A DNA stretch of 64,000 nt from Bryobacterales bacterium (lineage in GTDB: Bacteria > Acidobacteriota > Terriglobia > Bryobacterales > UBA6623). This document shows, one piece after another, positions 36,194 to 49,830 of this stretch (its first letter is position 1; each line of letters begins with the position of its first letter). Position numbers and translations under genes: made by a program. A model generated the notes under the pieces. The model was not told the origin of the DNA, searched no databases, and worked only from the letters and a program-made list of their open reading frames with translations. The DNA lies in NCBI GenBank assembly GCA_022824585.1, contig JAJDZN010000124.1:2029-66028 (forward strand). Direction: 5' to 3'.

Positions 36194-36355
36194 GGACGGA
36201 AGGCTACCCCGCGATCATAGACGACGATCAGGACCCGGGTCCGCAAGCGAGTCAGAGCGTCGGGCGCCACGACTGACGGGGCGCGCCCGCAAACATCACG
36301 CTATCACTGTGTTGGCGTGTAAGTAGTTATATTGCAACAGCTTACGGAATTCTTT

Positions 36356-36363
36356 GGTATACT
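36356..36363 (+). promoter_or_regulatory. extended -10 box TGGTATACT, 6 nt upstream of the hemE ATG (leaderless candidate)
   Basis: TGGTATACTaaagcgATG, with the ATG at 36370. No Shine-Dalgarno sequence is present. Confidence 0.45.
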
Positions 36364-36369
36364 AAAGCG

Positions 36370-37413
36370 ATGCGCCAGCGATTCCTCCGCGCATGTGCCG
36401 GCGAGTCCGGGGACTGCACTCCGGTGTGGTTCATGCGCCAAGCGGGGCGCTACATGGCCGCGTACCGCGCCTTGCGGCGCGACCACACGATCTTGGAGAT
36501 TTGCAAGACGCCGCGCCTCGCGGCAGAGGTCACGCGGCAGCCCGTCGACGCCTTGGACGTGGATGCGGCAATCATTTTCGCGGATCTCCTGCTGCCGCTG
36601 GAGCCGATGGGGCTCGGGCTGGAGTTCGTCGCCGGCGACGGCCCGCGAATCGAGCGGCCGGTCCGCTCCCGCGCCGATATCGATCGGCTCGAGACCGGGC
36701 GCGCCGCGGATCTGGACTATGTCGGCGAGTCCATTGCCCTGGCGCGCCGCCACCTGGACGGCCGCGTCCCGGTCATCGGATTCGTCGGCGCGCCGTTCAC
36801 GCTGGCGAGCTACATGATCGAAGGCAGGGGCTCGCGCCATTACGCCGCCACCAAGAGCCTGATGTGGAGCGACCCGTCCGGATGGCGGGAACTGATGGAG
36901 CGCATCGTCGCCGTGCTGGCGCCGTACGCTGCCAGCCAGGTCGCCGCCGGTGCCAGCGCCATCCAGGTTTTCGACAGCTGGGTTGGCGCGCTGTCCCCGT
37001 CCGACTACGAGCGCTTCGTCCTGCCGCATTCGCGGGAGTTGGTGCGGCGCATCCAGACCGGCGGCGTGCCGGTGATTCATTTCGGCACCGGCAACGCGGG
37101 CTTCTTGGAGGTGTTCTGTCGAGCTGGCGGCGACGTGCTGGGCCTGGACTGGCGCGTTGACCTGGCCGCGGCGTGGGAGCGCGTCGGCCACGACACGCCA
37201 GTGCAGGGAAACTTGGACCCGCTCGCCCTGCTGGCGCCCCTGCCAGAGCTGCGCCGCAAGGTTCGCGCCGTCCTGGCCGCCGCGGACGGACGTCCCGGCC
37301 ACATCTTCAACTTGGGCCACGGCATCATCCCCGAGACGCCCGTCGAACACGTCCGCGCCGCCGTGAGCATGGTCCGCGAGTATTGCGCCGAGCGAAAGGC
37401 ATGTCCCGGGTAG
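36370..37413 (+). CDS. hemE: uroporphyrinogen decarboxylase
   Basis: PVWFMRQAGRYM signature. Confidence 0.95.
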   Translation: MRQRFLRACAGESGDCTPVWFMRQAGRYMAAYRALRRDHTILEICKTPRLAAEVTRQPVDALDVDAAIIFADLLLPLEPMGLGLEFVAGDGPRIERPVRSRADIDRLETGRAADLDYVGESIALARRHLDGRVPVIGFVGAPFTLASYMIEGRGSRHYAATKSLMWSDPSGWRELMERIVAVLAPYAASQVAAGASAIQVFDSWVGALSPSDYERFVLPHSRELVRRIQTGGVPVIHFGTGNAGFLEVFCRAGGDVLGLDWRVDLAAAWERVGHDTPVQGNLDPLALLAPLPELRRKVRAVLAAADGRPGHIFNLGHGIIPETPVEHVRAAVSMVREYCAERKACPG

Positions 37414-38792
37414 CCATCGTTGGCGGCGGGGTCTCGGGCTTGTCTGCCGCCTACTACTTGGGGCGGCACGGCATTCCCTGCACTCTGATCGAGCGCGAGC
37501 AAAGGCTCGGCGGCATCGTCCGCACCGAGCGCTTCGGTGACTGCTTGGTCGAGGCCGGGCCGGACAGTTGGCTGGCTGAGAAGGACTGGATGCTGGACCT
37601 GGTGCGCGAACTCGGACTCGGCCACCAGGTGATCGGCTCCAATGACGAAAGGCGGCGTACCTATGTCGTCCGCCGCGGCCGTCCGCGGCCGCTGCCCGAG
37701 AGCATGCGGCTGCTGGCGCCGTCCAAGCCATGGCAGGCGGTCGCTAGCGGGCTGTTCGGCTTGGCCTCGAAGGCTCGCATGACGGGAGAGTGGTTTCGCC
37801 GGCCCCAGACGCTGCCCGAGCGGTCCGTTGCCGAATTTGTGGAGGACCACTTCGGGCGCGAGGCGGTCGAGTACCTTGCGCAGCCGCTGCTGGCGGGCGT
37901 GTACGGCTCGCCCCCCGAGAACTTATCGGCCGACAGCGTGATTCCGCGTTTCGTGGGATACGAGCGCGAGTACGGCAGCCTGCTGCGCGGCGTGTGGAAG
38001 AATCGCAAGCGACATCGGGACGGGCCTCTGTTCCTGACGTTGCGGGAGGGCATGGGCTCGCTGACCGACGCGCTGCAGCAGCACCTCCCCGAAACCTGCG
38101 AAGTCGTTGCGGACGAGGTACGGGCGGTGCAACCCAGCGCCGCCGGGTGGCGGGTCCGGGCCGAGCGCGGCGCATGGGATGCCAGCAGCGTGATCGTCGC
38201 GACTCCCGCCCCCGAAGCCGGTAGGCTGCTCGCTGGCGTCGACGATGCCCTGGCCGAGGGCCTGGGAAGCATCGTCTATACCTCCTCGGTCGTAGTCGCT
38301 CTGGTGTACCCGCAGCGCGGCTTCGGCCATCCCTTGGACGGCTTCGGCCTCTTGATCCCACGGGCCGAGCGCGGGACGCTGGCCGCCTGCACTTGGACAA
38401 ACACGAAGTTCTCAGGCCGGGCCGGGCCGGGCAAGGTCTTGCTGCGGGCTTTTCTGGCCGGCGCGGACGCCGAGCGGGCCCTGGAGTCAAACGACGAATT
38501 GGTATCCGGGCGAGCGGACGCGGAGCTGCGGCAGCGGATGGGCTTCCGATCTACCCTGGAGGTGTCGCGAGCCTACCGCTGGCCCGCCGCCATGCCCCAG
38601 TACTCGGTGGGTCATACCGCGCGGGTGAGCCAGATCGAAGAGCGGCTGGTCCGCTTCCCGGGGCTGCACTTGGCGGGAAACGGCTATGCCGGGCTCGGCC
38701 TGCCCGACTGCGTCCGTCGCAGCGAGCGCATCGCGAGGGCGATAGCGTCCGGAGAGGCGTCCCTCACGACCCCAGCCGCTGGACCGCCATGA
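37401..38792 (+). CDS. hemY: protoporphyrinogen/coproporphyrinogen III oxidase (HemY/CgoX family)
   Basis: MSRVAIVGGGVSGLSAAYYL FAD-binding N-terminus. The ATG at 37401 overlaps the hemE end. The track ORF has an Arg-rich extension back to 37173. Confidence 0.9.
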   Translation: MSRVAIVGGGVSGLSAAYYLGRHGIPCTLIEREQRLGGIVRTERFGDCLVEAGPDSWLAEKDWMLDLVRELGLGHQVIGSNDERRRTYVVRRGRPRPLPESMRLLAPSKPWQAVASGLFGLASKARMTGEWFRRPQTLPERSVAEFVEDHFGREAVEYLAQPLLAGVYGSPPENLSADSVIPRFVGYEREYGSLLRGVWKNRKRHRDGPLFLTLREGMGSLTDALQQHLPETCEVVADEVRAVQPSAAGWRVRAERGAWDASSVIVATPAPEAGRLLAGVDDALAEGLGSIVYTSSVVVALVYPQRGFGHPLDGFGLLIPRAERGTLAACTWTNTKFSGRAGPGKVLLRAFLAGADAERALESNDELVSGRADAELRQRMGFRSTLEVSRAYRWPAAMPQYSVGHTARVSQIEERLVRFPGLHLAGNGYAGLGLPDCVRRSERIARAIASGEASLTTPAAGPP

Positions 38793-41430: not shown

Positions 41431-41599
41431 AGCAATCCGCTCCCTGCCGGCGACCGTTCCTGTGTACAGACGTGCCGCATCGTGCGGGCCGATTTCGATT
41501 GTATCCGGGAGACGCAGCAGACTAGTGCCGCCCCGCGCAATGCCTCGCTCCAGACGGGCTCTCGCCTGCTAGCGGGGCGCTACACTGAAGTCAGCTCCA

Positions 41600-44500
41600 G
41601 TGCCGCAATGGGTGCCTCAGAAATGTGCAGTGCTTGCCGAAAAACCCTCGGTCGCGCGCGACATTTCGAAGGCGCTGGGAGCGACCGCGAGAGGCAGCGG
41701 ATTCTTCCACGGCAACGGCGTGGTGGTGACGTGGGCGATCGGCCACTTGGTCCATCTCGCCGAGCCGCACCAGATTGATCCGGCATGGAAGGAGTGGCGG
41801 CGTTCGCTGCTGCCCATGCTTCCGGGCGAATGGCCGCTGATCGTGGACGAGGAGCGGGCGGACCAGTTCGGCGTCGTCAAGAAAATCCTCAACAGCCCGA
41901 AGATCGAGCGGTTGGTCTGCGCCACCGACGCGGGCCGCGAGGGCGAGCTGATCTTCCGCCAGATCTACGCCGCGGCCGGCTCGTCCAAGCCGGTGGACCG
42001 GCTCTGGATTTCGTCGCTGACGCAGGACGCGATCCGGCGCGGCTTCCAGAACTTGCAACCGGCCAGCGGCTTCGACGACTTGGCGGCGGCCGCGCGTGCG
42101 CGCAGCCGCGCCGATTGGCTCGTCGGCATGAATCTCACGCGGGCCTACACGCTCGACCACGCCGACAGCGAGGTGCTCTCGGTCGGGCGGGTGCAGACGC
42201 CTACCCTGGCCATGCTGGTGGAGCGCGAGATCGCCATACGGGACTTCGTTCCCGAGGACTATCTGGAAGTTCACGCCGAGTTTGACGCAGGTGAGGGAAA
42301 GCACTACCGCGGCGTCTATTTTCGACTCGAAAAGGGCAAGCGGCAGCAGAGGCTAGCGGCTGACGGCAAGCAAGCGGCCGAGATCGTCGCAAGGGCCCGG
42401 GCAGGACGCGCCGATATCGTCTCGGTCAAGCGGACCCGGCATCGCCAGCCGCCGCCACATCTGTACGACCTCACCGAACTCCAGCGTCACGCCAACCGCT
42501 TGTACGGCTTCAGCGCCGAGCGCACACTCGGCATAGCGCAGGCTCTGTACGAGAAGCACAAGGCAATCACGTACCCCCGCACCGACAGCCGCTTTCTCTC
42601 CAGCGATGTTGCCAGCCAGGCGCCCCAGATCGCGTCGCGCGTGGTGCGCGGCTATGACGAGTCGTTGCTCGCGCCCGGCACCGGCACCGAACCGCTGCCG
42701 GGTCGGTTCGTGAACGATGCCAAGGTCACCGATCACCACGCCATCATTCCGACCGGTTCGGCCAGCGGCGTGCGCGATGGGTCGGCCGAAGCGAAAGTGC
42801 TCGACCTGATCAATCGCCGCTTTCTCCAGGCGTGGCACGCGGAACACCGCTATTCCTCCACGACCGTGATCACCCGCGTCGTGCACAGGGCAGACGAGGA
42901 TCAATACCTGTCCAGCGGCAAAGCCATCGACGATCCCGGCTGGAAGCTGCTCGACGCCGCGCCGGCGAACAAGCGCGAACCCAAGTCCGAGCCGGACCTG
43001 CCAAGCGGCTTGCGCCAAGGCCAGAGGGTGGAGGTGCAAGCGGCCGAGGCAGTCAAGAAGCGGACCAAGCCGCCGCCGCGGTTCACGGACGCAACCTTGC
43101 TGACGGCCATGGAGTCGGCGGGCAAGACACTCGACAGCCAAGCGCTCTCGGACGCCATGAAGGAGCGCGGCATCGGCACGCCGGCGACCCGCGCCTCGAT
43201 CATCGAAACGCTCCTAAAGCGTTCCTATGTCGAGCGCGAGAAGAAGACCCTGCGGGCTACCGAGAAGGGGATCCGCCTGCTCGACCTCGTTCATCCCAAG
43301 GTCCGCAGCCCGGAAATGACCGGAGAGTGGGAGGCCAAGCTGCGCAGCATCGAGCGCGGCGATGGCGGCTACGACAAGTTCATGCAGGGCATAGAGGAGT
43401 TCGTGCGCGACGTTGTCGGCGGTTCTGCCAACGGTTCAGCCTCCGCAAGCCACCGCAGTGTGGCCCGTTCGCAGCCGCCAACGAGCCCGCCGTCGCCCGC
43501 AGCCCGCGGGGGTACCGGGCTGGGCTCTCGGTTGACGCGGCGGAAAGCGGTCGCAGCTGACCAATCCGTCAAGCCCGCCGCCACGCCCGAGCCGCCGGTG
43601 GGCGCTCCCGGCGGACGCTCCGAGAAAACAGTGCCTACCCCTAGGCCGGCACTCCCGCGGCGCGGTTTAGGTTCGCCGCCGCCCGATCGGCCACCCCCGC
43701 CGGCTCCTTCCGGGCCGAAGCCGGCAGCTGTCTCCCCGGAGCGGCTGCGCGAACTGCTGCGATCGCGCTTCGGGCATGCCTCCTTTCGCCCGAACCAGGA
43801 GGCGGTCTGCCAAGATGTCGTGGCCGGCCGGGACGTGCTTCTCGTCATGCCGACTGGAGCGGGCAAGTCGCTTTGCTACCAGCTGCCCGGAATCGCCCGC
43901 GGCGACACCACGATTGTGATCAGCCCGCTGATCGCACTGATGGAGGACCAGACGGACAAGCTGCGCCAGCAGGGGTTCAAGGCCGAGCGGATCCATTCGG
44001 GGCGCGACCGGCTCGAATCGCGGCGCGTGTGCAAGGAGTATGTCGCGGGCGAGCTGGATTTTCTCTACATCGCTCCCGAGCGTCTGGCCGTGCCGGGCTT
44101 TCCCGAATTCCTGGCGAAGCGCACGCCGGGCCTGGTCGCCATCGATGAGGCGCATTGCATTTCCATGTGGGGCCATGACTTCCGCCCGGAGTACAGACGC
44201 TTGCGCGAGCGCTTGCCGTCCCTGCGTCCGGCCCCGGTGATCGCGCTGACAGCGACGGCCACGCCCATCGTCCAGCGCGACGTGATCGAGCAATTGGGCT
44301 TGGGCGATTGCAAGCGCTCGATTCATGGGTTCCGGCGCGAGAACCTGCAGATTGAGCTCGTGGAACTCGTGCCGTCACTGCGGCCCGCCGCCTTGGCAAG
44401 GCTGATGCTTGACGACTCGCGACGGCCGGCGATTGTCTACGCTCCGACCCGCAAGGCTGCTGAGGCGCAGGCCGAGTTGTTGCAGTCGAGCATGCCCGCG

Positions 44501-45802
44501 GCGGCCTATCACGCCGGCATGCCGGCCGAGGACCGTGACCGCGTGCAGGCCGCGTTCCTACGGGGAGACCTTGAAGTCATCGTCGCCACGATCGCATTCG
44601 GCATGGGCATCGACAAGCCGGACGTGCGCACGGTTGTCCATACTGGGCTGCCGGGTTCGATCGAGGGCTACTACCAAGAGATCGGCCGCGCGGGACGCGA
44701 CGGACTGCCCTCCAAGGCAATCCTGCTGCACTCGTGGGCGGACCGCAAGACGCACGAGTTCTTCTTGGAACGGGATTATCCCGAGCCGCCGAAGCTCGAA
44801 GCGATGTTCAACCGCCTCAGCACCGCCAAGCTGCCGGTCGGCGAATTGGCCGCCGACTTCTCCGGCGACCCCGAGGAGTTCGAGAGGGCGCTCGAGAAGC
44901 TGTGGATGCATGGCGGGGTGAGGATCGACGCAGACGATCAGGCCACCAAGGGCGACGGGAAGTGGCGGGCGCGCTATGAGGAGCAGCGCGCCTACAAGCT
45001 GCGGCAGCTGGACCAAGTGAGCGACTTCACCCGCTCCAACCAGTGCCGCATGCTCGACTTGGTGCGGCACTTCGACGACTTGGAGGATTCGCTCAAGCCC
45101 TGCCAGCATTGCGACAACTGCGACCCGGAGACCTGCACCGTCAAGACGTTCCGGCCGCCCACGCCGCAGGAATCGGCGGTGCTGGACACGATTCGACAGG
45201 CCCTGCGCGAGCGTGACGGACAGTCGGTCGGCAAGGTCTTTCGCGAGAGCGTGGAGCCGAACAACGTGGATCGAAAGACGTTCGAGCGGCTGGTGGACGG
45301 TTTACAGCGGGCGGACTTGGCGCGCATCGACCACGATTCCTTCGTCAACGCGCAGGGCGAGTCGATCGAGTACCGCCGCATCTGGCTGACGCCGGACGGT
45401 CGCAGCGCGACGAGCCTCGGCAGTTGCGTCAGGCTGCCCGCCGAACGCGCGGGCCTGGGGCCCGCGAAGCGGGCATCGCGACCGAAAAAGAGCGCCACGG
45501 CTGGCTCGGCGGGAAGGCGCAATGGCAGCCGCGCCACGAAGCAGTTTGGCTTGGGAGAGACCCCGCCCCGCGACGATTCTGACCAGTTGATCTCCTCCGC
45601 GCTGCGCGCCTGGCGAAAGTCCGAGGCGGGAAGACGCAAGATGCCCGCGTTTCGCGTGTTTCCCGATCGCACCTTGAACGCCTTGGTCGATCACAAGCCC
45701 TCGAACGACGCCGAGCTGCTGAAGGTGCCCGGTGTCGGGCCTGCGGTCGCGAAGAAGTACGGGGAGCAGTTGCTGCGGGTCATTCGCACTTCCGGCGCTT
45801 GA
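41600..45802 (+). CDS. DNA topoisomerase III (type IA) fused to RecQ helicase
   Basis: One uninterrupted ORF of 1400 aa. N-terminal half: LAEKPSVARDI, ATDAGREGELIF (TOPRIM), GRVQTPTLAML, and the active-site tyrosine motif ITYPRTDSRFL. C-terminal half: FRPNQ, MPTGAGKSLCYQLP, DEAHCISMWGHDFRPEY, QEIGRAGRDG, Zn motif CRM...CQHCDNC, and an HRDC-like end. The true start may be the GTG at 41630. Confidence 0.9.
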   Translation: MPQWVPQKCAVLAEKPSVARDISKALGATARGSGFFHGNGVVVTWAIGHLVHLAEPHQIDPAWKEWRRSLLPMLPGEWPLIVDEERADQFGVVKKILNSPKIERLVCATDAGREGELIFRQIYAAAGSSKPVDRLWISSLTQDAIRRGFQNLQPASGFDDLAAAARARSRADWLVGMNLTRAYTLDHADSEVLSVGRVQTPTLAMLVEREIAIRDFVPEDYLEVHAEFDAGEGKHYRGVYFRLEKGKRQQRLAADGKQAAEIVARARAGRADIVSVKRTRHRQPPPHLYDLTELQRHANRLYGFSAERTLGIAQALYEKHKAITYPRTDSRFLSSDVASQAPQIASRVVRGYDESLLAPGTGTEPLPGRFVNDAKVTDHHAIIPTGSASGVRDGSAEAKVLDLINRRFLQAWHAEHRYSSTTVITRVVHRADEDQYLSSGKAIDDPGWKLLDAAPANKREPKSEPDLPSGLRQGQRVEVQAAEAVKKRTKPPPRFTDATLLTAMESAGKTLDSQALSDAMKERGIGTPATRASIIETLLKRSYVEREKKTLRATEKGIRLLDLVHPKVRSPEMTGEWEAKLRSIERGDGGYDKFMQGIEEFVRDVVGGSANGSASASHRSVARSQPPTSPPSPAARGGTGLGSRLTRRKAVAADQSVKPAATPEPPVGAPGGRSEKTVPTPRPALPRRGLGSPPPDRPPPPAPSGPKPAAVSPERLRELLRSRFGHASFRPNQEAVCQDVVAGRDVLLVMPTGAGKSLCYQLPGIARGDTTIVISPLIALMEDQTDKLRQQGFKAERIHSGRDRLESRRVCKEYVAGELDFLYIAPERLAVPGFPEFLAKRTPGLVAIDEAHCISMWGHDFRPEYRRLRERLPSLRPAPVIALTATATPIVQRDVIEQLGLGDCKRSIHGFRRENLQIELVELVPSLRPAALARLMLDDSRRPAIVYAPTRKAAEAQAELLQSSMPAAAYHAGMPAEDRDRVQAAFLRGDLEVIVATIAFGMGIDKPDVRTVVHTGLPGSIEGYYQEIGRAGRDGLPSKAILLHSWADRKTHEFFLERDYPEPPKLEAMFNRLSTAKLPVGELAADFSGDPEEFERALEKLWMHGGVRIDADDQATKGDGKWRARYEEQRAYKLRQLDQVSDFTRSNQCRMLDLVRHFDDLEDSLKPCQHCDNCDPETCTVKTFRPPTPQESAVLDTIRQALRERDGQSVGKVFRESVEPNNVDRKTFERLVDGLQRADLARIDHDSFVNAQGESIEYRRIWLTPDGRSATSLGSCVRLPAERAGLGPAKRASRPKKSATAGSAGRRNGSRATKQFGLGETPPRDDSDQLISSALRAWRKSEAGRRKMPAFRVFPDRTLNALVDHKPSNDAELLKVPGVGPAVAKKYGEQLLRVIRTSGA

Positions 45803-48369: not shown

Positions 48370-48807
48370 TTGGCGAAGCCGGGCTCGCGCCGGCGCTCCA
48401 GGCCGGCTAGCAGACTGCGTCGCGTGCGATGGTTCATCTTGTCGTCCGGCCACGGAACGGCCTTCCTGCGCCTGGTGTGGGGGAAGTACCGGGCCGAGAT
48501 GGTCGCGGCGATCATTGCGGCCACCGCGCTGCCGCTGCTGTTCGGATGGGTGCCGCCCAACCCGTACTACGGATTCCGCACGCCGCGCTCCATGAGTTCG
48601 CCGGAAGCCTGGTATCGGGCGAACCAGATCATGGCGTGCTATCTGCTGGCATCCCAAGCCCTGGGCCTTCTGTCCAAGCGGCACGTGACCGCAACGCTGA
48701 TCTCCCGCTGGGGCAGGGACGAATCGACATGGGCGACGCCTTGGATATGCGCCGCCGCGCTCCTGGGCGTGCTAGGCTCTGTCGCTCATTTCTACTGGAT
48801 GGGCTGA
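48370..48807 (+). CDS. SdpI/YhfL-family membrane protein
   Basis: PPNPYYGFRTPRSMSSPEAWYRAN motif between TM segments. The start is uncertain; an alternative ATG lies at 48499. Confidence 0.55.
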   Translation: MAKPGSRRRSRPASRLRRVRWFILSSGHGTAFLRLVWGKYRAEMVAAIIAATALPLLFGWVPPNPYYGFRTPRSMSSPEAWYRANQIMACYLLASQALGLLSKRHVTATLISRWGRDESTWATPWICAAALLGVLGSVAHFYWMG

Positions 48808-48852
48808 GCGCCGCGGCGCGCGCGGCGATGCTGACAGCCGTGGCAGCGTCGT

Positions 48853-49830
48853 CTATCGCGACGGCGTGCCTACATGGCGGACGGTCGCTCCGGTCGGCAC
48901 GAGCTTGTCGCCCCGGACCTGCAAGCCGCCTTCTGGCATCGGTGGGCCGTCGTGGTCCCGGAAGTACAGGGGCAATCCTTCGGAAAAGTTGAGCGGGCGA
49001 CCCCGGGGATTCTGGCGCTGGTGGTGGATGTGAATGTGGGGCTCGCTGGTATTGCCCGAGTTGCCGCAGGCACCGATGGGCTGGCCCTCTTCGACTTGGT
49101 CGCCGCGCTTCACCAGCACGCTGCCCTGTTGCAGATGTGCGATCAGCAGGTAGGTCCCGCTGTCGAGCCTGAGCGCTACTGAATTGCCGGCCGGGTTCCT
49201 TATATCCATGCTTGCTTTGCCCGGCACGTGATCCGGCAGCCCGTCTACTGCCATGGCCACGGTCGCTGCAGCCGGCGCGACGACAGCAGTGCCGTAGCAG
49301 CCGTAGTCGGCGAGATCCTCGCTGCCCTGCATGGCCGGTTCGACCAGCAGGTCGTAGGCCCAGCGCTGGTCGGGGTAGGCGGCGTGATAGTTCGTGGCGA
49401 GGCTGTCGCCGCCCCAGCCGACGCGCAGTTCTTCGTTGGAGGGCAAGCGAACGGTCGCAGCGGGCGAAGAAGTCTCCAAGCTGAAAGGGAACGTAATGGT
49501 GAGGATTCCGAATCCCCACAGGGCGGGCCAGAAGGCTACTGCCGCCAGTCCGAACGTCACTTGCATCGGGCGGCTGAAGCGTCGCTTGTGCAAGGCGTGC
49601 GCGAGCAGCGCCATGAGTGAGACAGGGGCGAGCGTCTGGCCCGCCGTCACCAGCGCCAGCCAGCCTACGACGGCAGTCATGCCGCCCGACAAGTACATTG
49701 CCCACGCGGAAACGAGCACCAAAACCAACGTACCGGGCAGGCACCAGCGCAACACTGGCCAGCATCGCGCAAGAGCGGTTCTGAACCGGCGTAGGATCGA
49801 TGGGCTCCAGTCCGCCATTGCCGGTGGCAA
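48853..49830 (-). CDS. M23-family metallopeptidase with N-terminal membrane domain
   Basis: NSGNTSEPHIHIHHQ (HxH) and the upstream H/D metal-ligand region. Four N-terminal TMs. Confidence 0.85.
   Translation of the reverse strand: MPPAMADWSPSILRRFRTALARCWPVLRWCLPGTLVLVLVSAWAMYLSGGMTAVVGWLALVTAGQTLAPVSLMALLAHALHKRRFSRPMQVTFGLAAVAFWPALWGFGILTITFPFSLETSSPAATVRLPSNEELRVGWGGDSLATNYHAAYPDQRWAYDLLVEPAMQGSEDLADYGCYGTAVVAPAAATVAMAVDGLPDHVPGKASMDIRNPAGNSVALRLDSGTYLLIAHLQQGSVLVKRGDQVEEGQPIGACGNSGNTSEPHIHIHHQRQNPRGRPLNFSEGLPLYFRDHDGPPMPEGGLQVRGDKLVPTGATVRHVGTPSR

What the first reader, a model, noticed from the sequence alone, without database searches (positions are those of the whole stretch)
41600..45802. 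Topoisomerase III and RecQ helicase fused in one 1400-aa polypeptide
A single uninterrupted ORF encodes both enzymes.

- **Topoisomerase half (first ~600 aa).** It is a complete type IA topoisomerase with a TOPRIM motif ATDAGREGELIF, as in Bacillus-type TopB, and the catalytic tyrosine motif ITYPRTDSRFL.
- **Linker.** About 100 aa, rich in Pro/Ala/Gly/Ser, at nt ~43425-43733.
- **RecQ half.** It has Walker A MPTGAGKSLCYQLP, DEAH box DEAHCISMWGHDFRPEY, the Zn-binding cysteines and an HRDC-like C-terminus.

RecQ-family helicases and Topo III are known to work as separate partner proteins (E. coli RecQ/TopB, Sgs1-Top3, BLM-TOP3A). Reverse gyrase is a helicase-like N-terminal module fused to a topo IA C-terminal module. 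Here the order is reversed and the helicase is a true RecQ.

A covalent single-chain 'dissolvasome' would be an attractive system for double Holliday junction dissolution or decatenation. I am not aware of a characterised example.
Basis: partly seen in the sequence, partly recalled or inferred. Interest (0 to 1): 0.85.

Follow-up and report, generated by a model that had tools for sequence, protein, structure and literature searches.

The report
Natural topoisomerase III–RecQ helicase fusion protein
One 1400-residue bacterial protein joins a complete DNA topoisomerase III to a complete RecQ helicase through a floppy linker; these two enzymes normally cooperate as separate proteins, and the fusion is real, widespread (it is even in Myxococcus xanthus) and apparently never studied.

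Summary
Window 41600-45802 (+) is one uninterrupted 1400-aa ORF. It carries Toprim and the Topo IA core (residues 11-596), a disordered Pro/Ala/Gly/Ser/Arg linker (~605-712), and a complete RecQ (helicase core, Zn module, winged helix, HRDC).

- **Not an artefact.** At least 133 full-length homologues keep every catalytic residue of both halves. Linker length varies from 28 to 292 aa.
- **Distribution.** The fusion occurs in Acidobacteriota (the window is Bryobacterales), Myxococcota, and MAGs labelled Pseudobacteriovorax and Ca. Contendobacter. Cultured carriers include Myxococcus xanthus, Stigmatella, Corallococcus and Archangium. Databases call it 'DNA topoisomerase 3' or 'RecQ'.
- **Origin.** The topoisomerase halves form one clade (200/200 bootstrap), which points to a single origin. 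The topoisomerase half was later lost in some lineages.
- **Context.** It is a solitary chromosomal housekeeping gene. A strong PADLOC 'DpdF' hit has no support from gene context.
- **Structure.** AlphaFold models both halves confidently but predicts no fixed interface between them (pTM 0.53).

The best explanation is a tethered RecQ-Topo III strand-passage or 'dissolvasome' enzyme. This is inferred, not shown. I found no paper describing it.

The parts
41581..41588 (+). Conserved upstream motif TACACTGA, 13 nt before the GTG start. It may be a -10-like promoter element, which would imply a very short leader.
   Evidence: These columns are invariant in the upstream regions of six Bryobacterales loci that otherwise align at only 30% mean identity. 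The sequence was read. The sigma-70 consensus scan found no promoter, so the function is unproven.
41600..45802 (+). Single ORF of 1400 aa (GTG start, stop included) encoding the Topo III-linker-RecQ fusion.
41630..42013 (+). TOPRIM domain (residues 11-138). Acidic residues are E14, D110, E114 and E116. The motif is D-A-G instead of D-x-D.
   Evidence: Pfam Toprim hit. It aligns to E. coli Topo III residues 5-106. The residues are invariant in 126-133 of 133 homologues. All stand-alone TopBs of this branch also have D-x-G.
42074..43387 (+). Type IA topoisomerase core, domains II-IV (residues 159-596). It includes the catalytic Tyr325 (nt 42572-42574) in ITYPRTDSR and a Topo III-length 'decatenation loop' region (~503-524).
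   Evidence: Topoisom_bac E 3e-113 over the full profile. E. coli Topo III 1D6M E 1.6e-87 against Topo I 2e-28. Y325, P326, R327 and T328 are invariant in 133 of 133 homologues. AF2 pLDDT is about 85-93.
43412..43735 (+). Disordered linker (residues 605-712; 108 aa; 22% Pro, 15% Ala, 13% Ser, 12% Gly, 10% Arg; net charge +11).
   Evidence: No conservation and about 45% gaps in the family alignment. Length is 28-229 aa among 133 mainly acidobacterial homologues (a few are Myxococcota loci) and 48-292 aa in myxobacteria. AF2 pLDDT is about 30. GC2 of 0.78 reflects Pro/Ala/Gly/Arg codons.
43745..44767 (+). RecQ helicase core with two RecA lobes (residues 716-1056). Features: Walker A GAGKS (K756), DEAH 849-852, aromatic-rich loop SxWGHDFRP, motif VI QEIGRAGRDG.
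   Evidence: DEAD and Helicase_C hits. E. coli RecQ 1OYW E 7.6e-92 over residues 14-346. The motifs are invariant in 133 of 133 homologues. AF2 pLDDT is about 90.
44786..44950 (+). Family-specific insertion of about 55 aa with helix-helix-helix-strand-strand topology (winged-helix-like; residues 1063-1117), lying between the helicase core and the Zn-binding helices.
   Evidence: About 65 extra residues relative to E. coli RecQ. AF2 secondary structure is confident. Stand-alone RecQs of the same subfamily also have it, but generic RecQs do not.
44963..45124 (+). RecQ Zn-binding subdomain (residues 1122-1175) with Cys1149, Cys1168, Cys1171 and Cys1174.
   Evidence: RecQ_Zn_bind hit. All four Cys are invariant in 133 of 133 homologues. 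It aligns to the E. coli RecQ Cys cluster.
45164..45388 (+). RQC winged-helix domain with a beta-hairpin (residues 1189-1263).
   Evidence: No Pfam RQC hit. The AF2 model shows three helices plus a hairpin. The whole model superposes on RecQ catalytic cores 4TMU and 1OYW over about 600 columns, TM 0.72.
45476..45568 (+). Second disordered spacer (residues ~1293-1323) before the HRDC domain.
   Evidence: AF2 pLDDT below 50 at half-model residues 593-623. Low conservation; length 6-123 aa across the family.
45575..45796 (+). HRDC domain (residues 1326-1399).
   Evidence: Pfam HRDC E 2e-18. A helical bundle in the AF2 model. Absent from the Contendobacter and Pseudobacteriovorax versions.

Best explanation
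The gene encodes a genuine, conserved single-chain enzyme. A catalytically complete Topo III-type type IA topoisomerase sits at the N-terminus. A complete RecQ-family 3'-5' helicase sits at the C-terminus, with helicase core, Zn module, winged helix and HRDC. A long, intrinsically disordered, fast-evolving linker joins them.

Most likely mechanism (inferred):
1. The RecQ half binds branched or gapped DNA through its winged helix and HRDC, and uses ATP to unwind duplex DNA.
2. The tether holds the Topo III half at 1:1 stoichiometry and high local concentration. It loads on the exposed single strand, cleaves it through Tyr325, passes another strand through the gate and reseals.

This is the RecQ-Topo III strand-passage reaction known for the separate E. 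coli proteins and for Sgs1-Top3 and BLM-TOP3A. The predicted outputs are decatenation of late replication intermediates and converging forks, and crossover-free dissolution of double Holliday junctions or hemicatenanes.

The covalent tether would replace the bridging that SSB (in bacteria) or RMI1 (in eukaryotes) otherwise provides.

Shown here: the architecture, the integrity and conservation of both active sites, linker disorder, a solitary chromosomal housekeeping context, and a single origin of the topoisomerase half.

Inferred: all biochemical activities and the in vivo role.
For: Architecture and domain integrity.

Both active sites are invariant in 133 homologues at identities down to about 50%, so both halves are under purifying selection.

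The topoisomerase is of Topo III type: 297 bits to E. coli Topo III against 102 bits to Topo I. A loop region aligns with only a one-residue gap to the E. coli Topo III decatenation-loop region.

The RecQ half model has pLDDT 85.9 and pTM 0.78, and superposes on bacterial RecQ cores including the winged helix.

The linker is 28-292 aa, about 66% P/A/G/S/R, unconserved, with pLDDT about 30.

The 1-1200 model has confident domains but pTM 0.53, so no fixed interface is predicted. This fits a tether rather than a rigid machine.

Breadth: at least 31 GTDB species genomes in Acidobacteriota, Myxococcota, Pseudobacteriovorax and Ca. Contendobacter, about 54 of the 150 best 50%-identity representatives, and more than 25 named myxobacterial species.

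The fused topoisomerase halves are monophyletic, 200/200 bootstrap.

Independent genomic linkage of the same two functions: recQ and topB are adjacent, 23 bp apart, in Listeria.

Gene context is housekeeping and shows no conserved partner genes.

Established knowledge (my own): E. coli RecQ and Topo III jointly catenate and decatenate DNA (Harmon, DiGate and Kowalczykowski 1999). They also resolve converging forks (Suski and Marians 2008, cited in PMC2647321 and PMC11894792).
Against: - No biochemical or genetic data exist for any member.
- The lack of a predicted interface comes from a single pTM value, and about 100 disordered residues also depress pTM.
- I could not establish whether genomes with the fusion also keep stand-alone topB or recQ genes. 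So it is unknown whether the fusion is the main RecQ/Topo III or a specialised extra copy.
- The topoisomerase half has been lost or has decayed in some lineages (L086; L093 and L094). The coupling is therefore dispensable at least sometimes.
- Myxococcaceae replace the Asp of YPRTDSR with Ala, Ser or Gly. The consequence is unknown.
- The RecQ half fails the curated E. coli-type RecQ equivalog cut-off (488 vs 640) and carries an extra winged-helix-like insertion. Its substrate preference may therefore differ from classical RecQ.
Confidence: 0.7

Rival explanations
1. This is co-expression only. The fusion merely guarantees equal production of two enzymes that then act independently (Topo III as a general decatenase, RecQ as a general repair helicase), with no mechanistic coupling on the same DNA molecule.
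For: The linker is long, variable and unconserved, and no inter-domain interface is predicted. Stand-alone RecQs of the same subfamily exist with no topB within 4 kb. The topoisomerase half has decayed in L086.
Against: The fusion has been kept across several phyla with a single origin of the topoisomerase half. The same two genes are adjacent in Listeria. The separate E. coli enzymes are known to act synergistically (established knowledge). A tether of about 100 residues enforces proximity, so independence on DNA is physically unlikely.
Confidence: 0.15
2. It is a reverse-gyrase-like machine: the helicase and topoisomerase form a tightly coupled ATP-driven topoisomerase that actively changes supercoiling, positively or negatively, in mesophiles.
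For: It is the only other natural covalent pairing of an SF2 helicase module with a type IA topoisomerase. The reverse gyrase model TIGR01054 matches the topoisomerase part.
Against: The domain order is reversed. TIGR01054 scores 114 bits against a cut-off of 472 and matches only the topoisomerase region. The helicase is a full RecQ with Zn, winged helix and HRDC, not the reduced reverse gyrase module. The two halves are separated by 28-292 disordered residues and no interface is predicted.
Confidence: 0.07
3. It is a component of an anti-phage defence system: a DpdF-like helicase of the Dpd 7-deazaguanine system, or a PsyrT-like RecQ toxin.
For: PADLOC model PDLC02865 'DpdF' matches residues 9-1312 at 1489 bits. 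PsyrT scores 374 bits.
Against: The curated NCBIfam DpdF equivalog scores 181 bits against a cut-off of 550. Other PADLOC 'DpdF' models are about 610 positions long and match the query only across its RecQ half; they look like plain RecQ profiles, so the label probably reflects homology expansion. None of ten neighbours hits a defence family beyond trivial scores. No neighbour family is shared across lineages. Synteny is with housekeeping genes. No fused copy was found on 72,556 plasmids or 50,697 phage records.
Confidence: 0.03
4. It is an assembly or sequencing artefact, or a pseudogene, in which two adjacent genes have been joined.
For: The linker has weaker codon bias (GC3 0.70). One relative (L108) does carry a frameshift.
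Against: More than 230 homologous full-length ORFs come from independent assemblies, including complete chromosomes of cultured species. Both halves are in the same frame with the same GC3. All catalytic residues are invariant.
Confidence: 0.01

Closest known systems
E. coli RecQ + topoisomerase III (TopB), functionally bridged by SSB
   Same: The same two enzyme families. The topoisomerase half aligns to E. coli Topo III residues 5-596 (E 1.6e-87) and the helicase half to E. coli RecQ residues 14-346 (E 7.6e-92). The expected chemistry is the same: RecQ makes ssDNA and Topo III passes strands.
   Different: Here the two are one polypeptide joined by a disordered tether. The Topo III C-terminal tail is replaced by the linker. 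The TOPRIM motif is D-x-G rather than D-x-D. The RecQ carries an extra winged-helix-like insertion and fails the E. coli-type equivalog cut-off.
Eukaryotic dissolvasome: Sgs1-Top3-Rmi1 / BLM-TOP3A-RMI1/2
   Same: A RecQ-family helicase physically coupled to a Topo III-type enzyme. The helicase has RQC and HRDC domains. Foldseek matches to BLM structures have E about 1e-33.
   Different: In eukaryotes the coupling is non-covalent, through the helicase N-terminus and the RMI1 OB-fold. No OB-fold or RMI1-like domain is detected here. Here the topoisomerase is N-terminal and covalently attached.
Reverse gyrase
   Same: A natural single-chain fusion of an SF2 helicase-type module with a type IA topoisomerase.
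   Different: The order is opposite (helicase is N-terminal in reverse gyrase). The reverse gyrase helicase-like module is not a true RecQ and packs rigidly against the topoisomerase. The TIGR01054 score is far below its cut-off and covers only the topoisomerase part. The organisms here are soil mesophiles, not thermophiles.
Listeria monocytogenes recQ-topB gene pair
   Same: The same two functions are genomically linked: recQ (590 aa) is followed 23 bp later by topB (717 aa) on one strand, in a housekeeping context.
   Different: They are two separate proteins. The gene order is recQ then topB, the reverse of the fusion. The RecQ is generic and lacks the insertion.
PADLOC 'DpdF' model PDLC02865
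   Same: A near full-length profile match (1489 bits, residues 9-1312). The model was evidently built from proteins with this same architecture.
   Different: The window gene and its relatives have no dpd neighbours. It also fails the curated DpdF model. The label is probably a by-product of homology expansion.

Membership tests
Type IA topoisomerase, Topo III (TopB) subfamily | TOPRIM domain with a conserved Glu and an acidic D-x-D/E cluster for Mg2+ | tested here: met
   E14, D110, E114 and E116 are present and invariant. The second Asp is Gly (D-A-G) in all 133 fused proteins and in all 60 stand-alone TopBs of this branch.
Type IA topoisomerase, Topo III (TopB) subfamily | Catalytic tyrosine in domain III (YPR motif) and the full four-domain toroid | tested here: met
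   Y325, P326 and R327 are invariant. Topoisom_bac covers profile positions 4-411 of 411. The AF2 domains are confident.
Type IA topoisomerase, Topo III (TopB) subfamily | Curated subfamily models above their cut-offs, and closer to Topo III than to Topo I | tested here: met
   NF005829 660 vs 597; TIGR01056 572 vs 516. PDB Topo III 297.7 bits against Topo I 102.6 bits.
Type IA topoisomerase, Topo III (TopB) subfamily | Decatenation loop (17-residue insertion, E. coli 502-519; position taken from my own knowledge) | tested here: met
   The region aligns to E. coli Topo III ~496-525 with a single one-residue gap. The loop is less basic than in E. coli, and its function is untested.
Type IA topoisomerase, Topo III (TopB) subfamily | ssDNA cleavage/religation and decatenase activity | not testable with these tools
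   This needs purified protein.
RecQ helicase family | SF2 core with Walker A, DEAH, the RecQ aromatic-rich loop and motif VI arginines | tested here: met
   All are invariant in 133 of 133 homologues. E. coli RecQ E 7.6e-92. TIGR00614 392 vs 220.
RecQ helicase family | RQC region: four-Cys Zn-binding subdomain plus a winged helix with a beta-hairpin | tested here: met
   RecQ_Zn_bind hit and four invariant Cys. The winged helix is seen only in the structure prediction: there is no Pfam RQC hit, but AF2 shows it and Foldseek gives TM 0.72 to 4TMU and 1OYW over about 600 columns.
RecQ helicase family | HRDC domain | tested here: met
   Pfam HRDC E 2e-18. It is absent in some family members.
RecQ helicase family | Equivalog of E. 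coli RecQ (TIGR01389 / NF008279 above cut-off) | tested here: not met
   488 vs 640 and 383 vs 1015. It belongs to the RecQ family but to a distinct subfamily with an insertion of about 55 aa.
Reverse gyrase | N-terminal helicase-like module, C-terminal Topo IA, and the curated model TIGR01054 above cut-off | tested here: not met
   The order is reversed. The score is 114 vs 472, and only the topoisomerase region (model positions 718-1165) matches.
Dpd system helicase DpdF | Curated DpdF equivalog above cut-off, and location in a dpdA-K cluster | tested here: not met
   NF041063 181 vs 550. No dpd or other defence genes lie among the neighbours here or in 12 related loci. The PADLOC PDLC02865 hit is a resemblance only.
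Eukaryote-type dissolvasome (RecQ-Top3-RMI1) | RMI1-type OB-fold bridging subunit | tested here: not met
   No OB-fold domain is in the protein and there is no conserved neighbour gene. The covalent linker may make such a subunit unnecessary (inference).

The most novel reading that the evidence does not exclude
The tether does more than co-localise the two halves. On this reading the fusion is a new class of ATP-dependent type IA topoisomerase in mesophilic bacteria. RecQ translocation would be mechanically coupled to the Topo III gate, giving an emergent activity that neither the separate E. coli proteins nor reverse gyrase show. Examples would be processive, SSB/RMI1-independent double-Holliday-junction dissolution, or directional strand passage. 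The family-specific winged-helix insertion in the RecQ half could be the docking or sensing element.
Probability: 0.12. Interest if true: 0.85.

Novelty: new variant of a known kind. Interest (0 to 1): 0.62.

Why it matters
RecQ helicases and Topo III-type enzymes cooperate from bacteria to humans (BLM-TOP3A). In bacteria, however, the physiological meaning of the partnership is still debated. A 2026 paper states that Topo III's anti-recombination role 'remains poorly defined in prokaryotes' (PMC13244152 abstract).

A natural covalent fusion that arose once and has been kept across several phyla is Rosetta-stone evidence that the two activities are meant to act together on the same substrate.

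It also offers a minimal, stoichiometrically defined single-chain 'dissolvasome' for structural and single-molecule work, with no need for SSB or RMI1.

It corrects the statement that reverse gyrase is the unique helicase-topoisomerase fusion (PMC7245102).

Because Myxococcus xanthus carries it, genetics is immediately feasible.

On the practical side, databases name it inconsistently ('topoisomerase 3', 'RecQ', 'recombinase RecQ'), and a defence-system HMM labelled DpdF matches it at full length. Both are likely sources of mis-annotation.

Tried and rejected
2. One Pfam batch exceeded the residue limit, and one script timed out. Both were rerun.
3. The first neighbour-joining trees used metagenomic 50%-identity representatives and were uninterpretable. 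Many 'unfused' proteins are probably fragments of fused genes cut at contig ends. I replaced them with trees built only from genome loci whose ORFs are closed by stop codons.
4. My BLAST table missed the topoisomerase half of L012. Pfam showed that L012 is a full fusion.
5. An apparent 100-aa deletion around the catalytic Tyr in L091 turned out to be a masked run of N in the record. I rejected it.
6. The listing of cluster members returned no organism names.
7. I followed up the PADLOC 'DpdF' hit and rejected a defence role on context.
8. The plasmid and phage searches found only stand-alone topB, or the Listeria gene pair. No fused copy turned up.
9. The sigma-70 promoter and terminator scan found nothing useful. 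I saw no LexA-type box by eye in the 169-bp upstream region.
10. I tried to link the M. xanthus fusion to the damage-responsive 'RecQ MXAN_1950' of PMC12288472. The paper and its supplement give only the name. The fusion's position in another M. xanthus strain (0.62 Mb of 9.26 Mb) does not obviously fit. This is unresolved.
11. I could not test whether fusion-bearing genomes also have stand-alone topB or recQ genes, because the tools give no whole-genome access. The 64-kb window holds no paralogue.

Full report
**1. The observation**

Window 41600..45802 (+) is a single 1400-aa ORF with a GTG start and no internal stop.

Pfam finds these domains, all above gathering cut-offs:

| Domain | Residues | Note |
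|---|---|---|
| Toprim | 11-138 | |
| Topoisom_bac | 159-596 | E 3e-113, whole profile |
| DEAD | 730-888 | |
| Helicase_C | 931-1035 | |
| RecQ_Zn_bind | 1126-1174 | |
| HRDC | 1334-1395 | |

NCBIfam puts the N-terminal half in the Topo III subfamily (NF005829 660 bits vs cut-off 597; TIGR01056 572 vs 516). It puts the C-terminal half in the RecQ family (TIGR00614 392 vs 220). The C-terminal half is not an E. coli RecQ equivalog (TIGR01389 488 vs 640).

Third-position GC is 0.84 in the topoisomerase half and 0.85 in the RecQ half, in the same frame. The linker's GC2 of 0.78 reflects Pro/Ala/Gly/Arg codons.

**2. It is not an artefact and not a one-off**

A search of 5.8 billion proteins returned only full-length proteins with the same architecture among its best 120 hits. 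They are 1308-1533 aa long, 97% down to 52% identical, and several lie on multi-megabase contigs.

I aligned 133 fused proteins. Every catalytic residue of both halves is invariant:
- TOPRIM: E14, D110, E114, E116;
- topoisomerase active site: Y325, P326, R327;
- helicase: Walker A K756, DEAH 849-852, the aromatic-rich loop W857/H859/F861/R862, motif VI R1030/R1033;
- Zn cluster: Cys1149, 1168, 1171, 1174.

Conservation collapses only in residues ~605-712 and ~1280-1325.

**3. Each half against solved structures**

The N-terminal half aligns end to end with E. coli Topo III (1D6M residues 5-596, E 1.6e-87). It matches Topo I far more weakly (E 2e-28). The Topo III alignment includes the region of the decatenation loop with only a one-residue gap.

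The TOPRIM motif is D-A-G where E. coli has D-P-D. This is the norm for the whole TopB branch: all 60 stand-alone relatives have [CT]-D-[AS]-[GA]-REGE. It is therefore not a sign of inactivation.

The C-terminal half aligns with E. coli RecQ residues 14-346 (E 7.6e-92) and, weakly, with the Cys cluster. It has about 65 extra residues in between.

An AlphaFold model of residues 701-1400 is confident (pLDDT 85.9, pTM 0.78). In order, it shows:
- two RecA lobes;
- a small helix-helix-helix-strand-strand (winged-helix-like) insertion at 1063-1117;
- the Zn-binding helices;
- a canonical winged helix with a beta-hairpin at 1189-1263;
- a disordered spacer;
- the HRDC bundle.

Foldseek places the model on bacterial RecQ catalytic cores (4TMU, 1OYW; TM 0.72 over about 600 columns). 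The RQC module is thus present even though Pfam's RQC model is silent.

**4. The linker**

- In the window it is 108 aa: 22% Pro, 15% Ala, 13% Ser, 12% Gly, 10% Arg, net charge +11.
- Across the 133 aligned fused homologues (mainly Acidobacteriota) it is 28-229 aa (median 98), with no conserved position.
- In 97 myxobacterial proteins it is 48-292 aa (median 153).
- AlphaFold gives it pLDDT of about 30.
- The model of residues 1-1200 has confident domains (mean pLDDT 82.6) but pTM of only 0.53.

So no fixed Topo-RecQ interface is predicted. This is weak evidence, because only pTM is available, but it points to a flexible tether rather than a rigid reverse-gyrase-like assembly.

**5. Who has it**

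The window is from a Bryobacterales (Acidobacteriota) genome. The closest GTDB locus, L008, is 92% identical and shares the whole neighbourhood.

Even so, they yielded at least 31 loci with both halves in one ORF:
- Bryobacterales, Acidobacteriia and other Acidobacteriota (the Thermoanaerobaculia fused forms come; the one GTDB Thermoanaerobaculia locus, L092, is stand-alone);
- Myxococcota (Archangium, Labilithrix, Polyangia);
- a Pseudobacteriovorax MAG;
- Ca. Contendobacter and Competibacteraceae MAGs.

The last two groups lack the HRDC domain. Taxon labels of MAGs carry the usual mis-binning caveat.

An exhaustive HMMER search of 1.84 billion 50%-identity representatives found both halves in about 54 of the best 150 hits, with identities down to about 37-42%.

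A search seeded with the Archangium protein showed the fusion in cultured species: Myxococcus xanthus, M. stipitatus DSM 14675, M. fulvus, Corallococcus coralloides, Stigmatella aurantiaca, Cystobacter fuscus, Archangium gephyra, Hyalangium minutum, Pyxidicoccus and others. These proteins are named 'DNA topoisomerase 3', 'ATP-dependent DNA helicase RecQ', 'recombinase RecQ' or 'RecQ family helicase'.

**6. Evolution**

I used only genome loci whose ORFs are bounded by stop codons.

Topoisomerase half: the 27 fused proteins form one clade against 59 stand-alone TopBs, with 200/200 bootstrap support. The single apparent exception, L009, is a fused gene cut by its contig end. This indicates a single origin of the fused topoisomerase.

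RecQ half: it belongs to a distinct subfamily that contains the insertion. That subfamily also includes truly stand-alone members in Bdellovibrionales, Myxococcales, Thermoanaerobaculia and Acidobacteriota, with no topB within 4 kb.

Two nestings in the RecQ tree are well supported:
- stand-alone L093 and L094 lie inside a fused clade (98%);
- L086 is sister to a fused Bryobacterales gene (100%).

L086 carries a decayed Toprim remnant (AEKPS to ADSSS; DAGREGE to DASGPGE) in front of an intact RecQ. The topoisomerase half has therefore been lost secondarily at least twice. Deep nodes are unresolved by neighbour joining.

**7. Context**

The window gene is solitary. It is transcribed divergently from a MeaB GTPase gene and a methylmalonyl-CoA-epimerase-like gene. 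Downstream lie a Zn-ribbon membrane protein, a MerR-TPR regulator and a HAD hydrolase.

This synteny holds across Bryobacterales at 65-92% identity but not beyond. Apart from order-level (Bryobacterales) and genus-level (Archangium) synteny, no neighbour family is shared between lineages. The M. xanthus copy is likewise surrounded by unrelated genes. The 64-kb window has no second topoisomerase or RecQ.

**8. The defence-system lead**

PADLOC model PDLC02865 'DpdF' matches residues 9-1312 at 1489 bits. I reject a Dpd or other defence role for four reasons:
- the curated NCBIfam DpdF model scores 181 vs a cut-off of 550;
- other PADLOC 'DpdF' models are about 610 positions long and match the query only across its RecQ half, so they look like ordinary RecQ profiles;
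- none of ten neighbours hits a defence family meaningfully;
- there is no conserved island, and no fused copy on plasmids or phages.

The model label probably stems from homology expansion. It will mislabel these proteins.

**9. An independent genomic link between the two functions**

In Listeria monocytogenes, recQ (590 aa) is followed 23 bp later by topB (717 aa) on the same strand, next to guaB. This is the split counterpart of the fusion, in the opposite gene order.

**10. Mechanism**

Shown here:
- two intact, strongly conserved active sites on one chain;
- a disordered tether;
- a housekeeping context.

Inferred from established knowledge of E. coli RecQ with Topo III (joint catenation and decatenation; resolution of converging forks) and of Sgs1-Top3 and BLM-TOP3A (dissolution of double Holliday junctions):
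1. RecQ binds branched or gapped DNA and unwinds it with ATP.
2. The tethered Topo III loads on the exposed single strand.
3. Topo III cleaves via Tyr325, passes a strand and reseals.

The tether would enforce 1:1 stoichiometry and high local concentration. It would replace the bridging otherwise provided by SSB or RMI1.

Rivals: independent action of the two halves (0.15), a reverse-gyrase-like supercoiling machine (0.07), a defence component (0.03) and an artefact (0.01).

**11. Novelty**

Nine literature searches and targeted reading found no description of a Topo III-RecQ fusion. The reading covered a 2024 review of type IA topoisomerase diversity (PMC10969213), the 2009 phylogenomic survey of topoisomerases (PMC2647321) and a 2024 archaeal topology review.

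A 2020 PNAS paper states that reverse gyrase is the unique such fusion (PMC7245102).

The searched library lacks most subscription journals, so a mention elsewhere cannot be excluded.

The architecture has been in public genomes and automatic annotations for years. It is an overlooked covalent variant of a known partnership, not a new kind of system.

**12. Verdict**

The finding is real and correctly interpreted. The fusion is widespread, already present in databases, and mechanistically predictable. It is still worthwhile because it is uncharacterised, contradicts a stated uniqueness claim, and is immediately testable in M. xanthus.

Noticed in passing
L086:3449-6004 (Bryobacterales MAG chromosome OZ252029.1, 9.1 Mb): An 852-aa ORF with a decayed Toprim remnant (29% identical to residues 7-149; catalytic Glu and the DAGREGE motif lost), no topoisomerase domains II-IV, and then an intact RecQ. 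It is sister to a fused gene in the RecQ tree (100% bootstrap). This looks like a fusion caught losing its topoisomerase half.
   Followed up: partly
window 41581-41588; also L008, L001, L002, L003 and L004 upstream regions: The motif TACACTGA is invariant about 13 nt upstream of the start codon in six Bryobacterales loci whose intergenic regions are otherwise about 30% identical. It may be a -10-like element giving a nearly leaderless mRNA, or a regulatory site. The sigma-70 consensus scan found no promoter.
   Followed up: partly
L161:6965-10914 (Listeria monocytogenes NZ_LR134400.1, labelled 'plasmid 3' but 594 kb with housekeeping genes): recQ and topB are adjacent on one strand, 23 bp apart, next to guaB. 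This is an operon-like unfused counterpart of the fusion. Short 'Listeria phage' records also contain the pair. The 'plasmid' label of the record looks wrong.
   Followed up: partly
PADLOC-DB model PDLC02865 vs window 41600-45799: A defence-database HMM named DpdF (1499 positions) is in effect a profile of Topo III-RecQ fusions, scoring 1489 bits. Several other 'DpdF' models are RecQ-length (about 610 positions) and match the query only across its RecQ half. These models will flag housekeeping RecQ and fusion genes as DpdF candidates.
   Followed up: yes
L095:2780-6016 (= L013; Bdellovibrionales MAG JAFEAP010000029.1): A stand-alone RecQ of the same subfamily carries an N-terminal extension of about 400 aa with no Pfam domain, in the position where the fusion proteins have the topoisomerase.
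   Followed up: no
L102:1727-5755 (Ca. Contendobacter MAG) and L109:1928-5608 (Pseudobacteriovorax MAG): These fused proteins lack the HRDC domain. L109 has a weak PcrA/UvrD tudor-like hit at its C-terminus (E 4e-4). About 17 of the 50%-identity representatives also show Topo+RecQ without HRDC, though some may be truncated.
   Followed up: partly
P0303-P0399 (Myxococcaceae/Archangiaceae fusion proteins): The active-site motif is LSYPRT[A/S/G]SRH in all 97 myxobacterial proteins, against [ILV][TS]YPRTDSR in all 120 acidobacterial ones. Tyr and Arg are kept, but the following Asp is replaced. The consequence for catalysis is unknown.
   Followed up: partly
L108:5253-5435 (Bryobacteraceae MAG CAWGVL010000055.1): The fused gene shows a +1 frame change within the RecQ Zn region. 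It is either a pseudogene or an indel error of a long-read assembly.
   Followed up: no
PMC12288472 Table 1 and supplement; L162 (M. xanthus CP017170.1 615975-620768): M. xanthus 'RecQ' MXAN_1950 rises about 1.9 log2-fold units after mitomycin C and in a ddiA mutant. I could not determine whether MXAN_1950 is the fusion or a second, stand-alone RecQ. The fusion's map position in another strain suggests a different locus.
   Followed up: partly
window 36304-37731 (-) and 48429-49765: ORFs of 475, 187 and 378 aa near the fusion gene have no Pfam hits. In this 66% GC sequence some may be spurious, since they overlap better-supported ORFs on the other strand.
   Followed up: no
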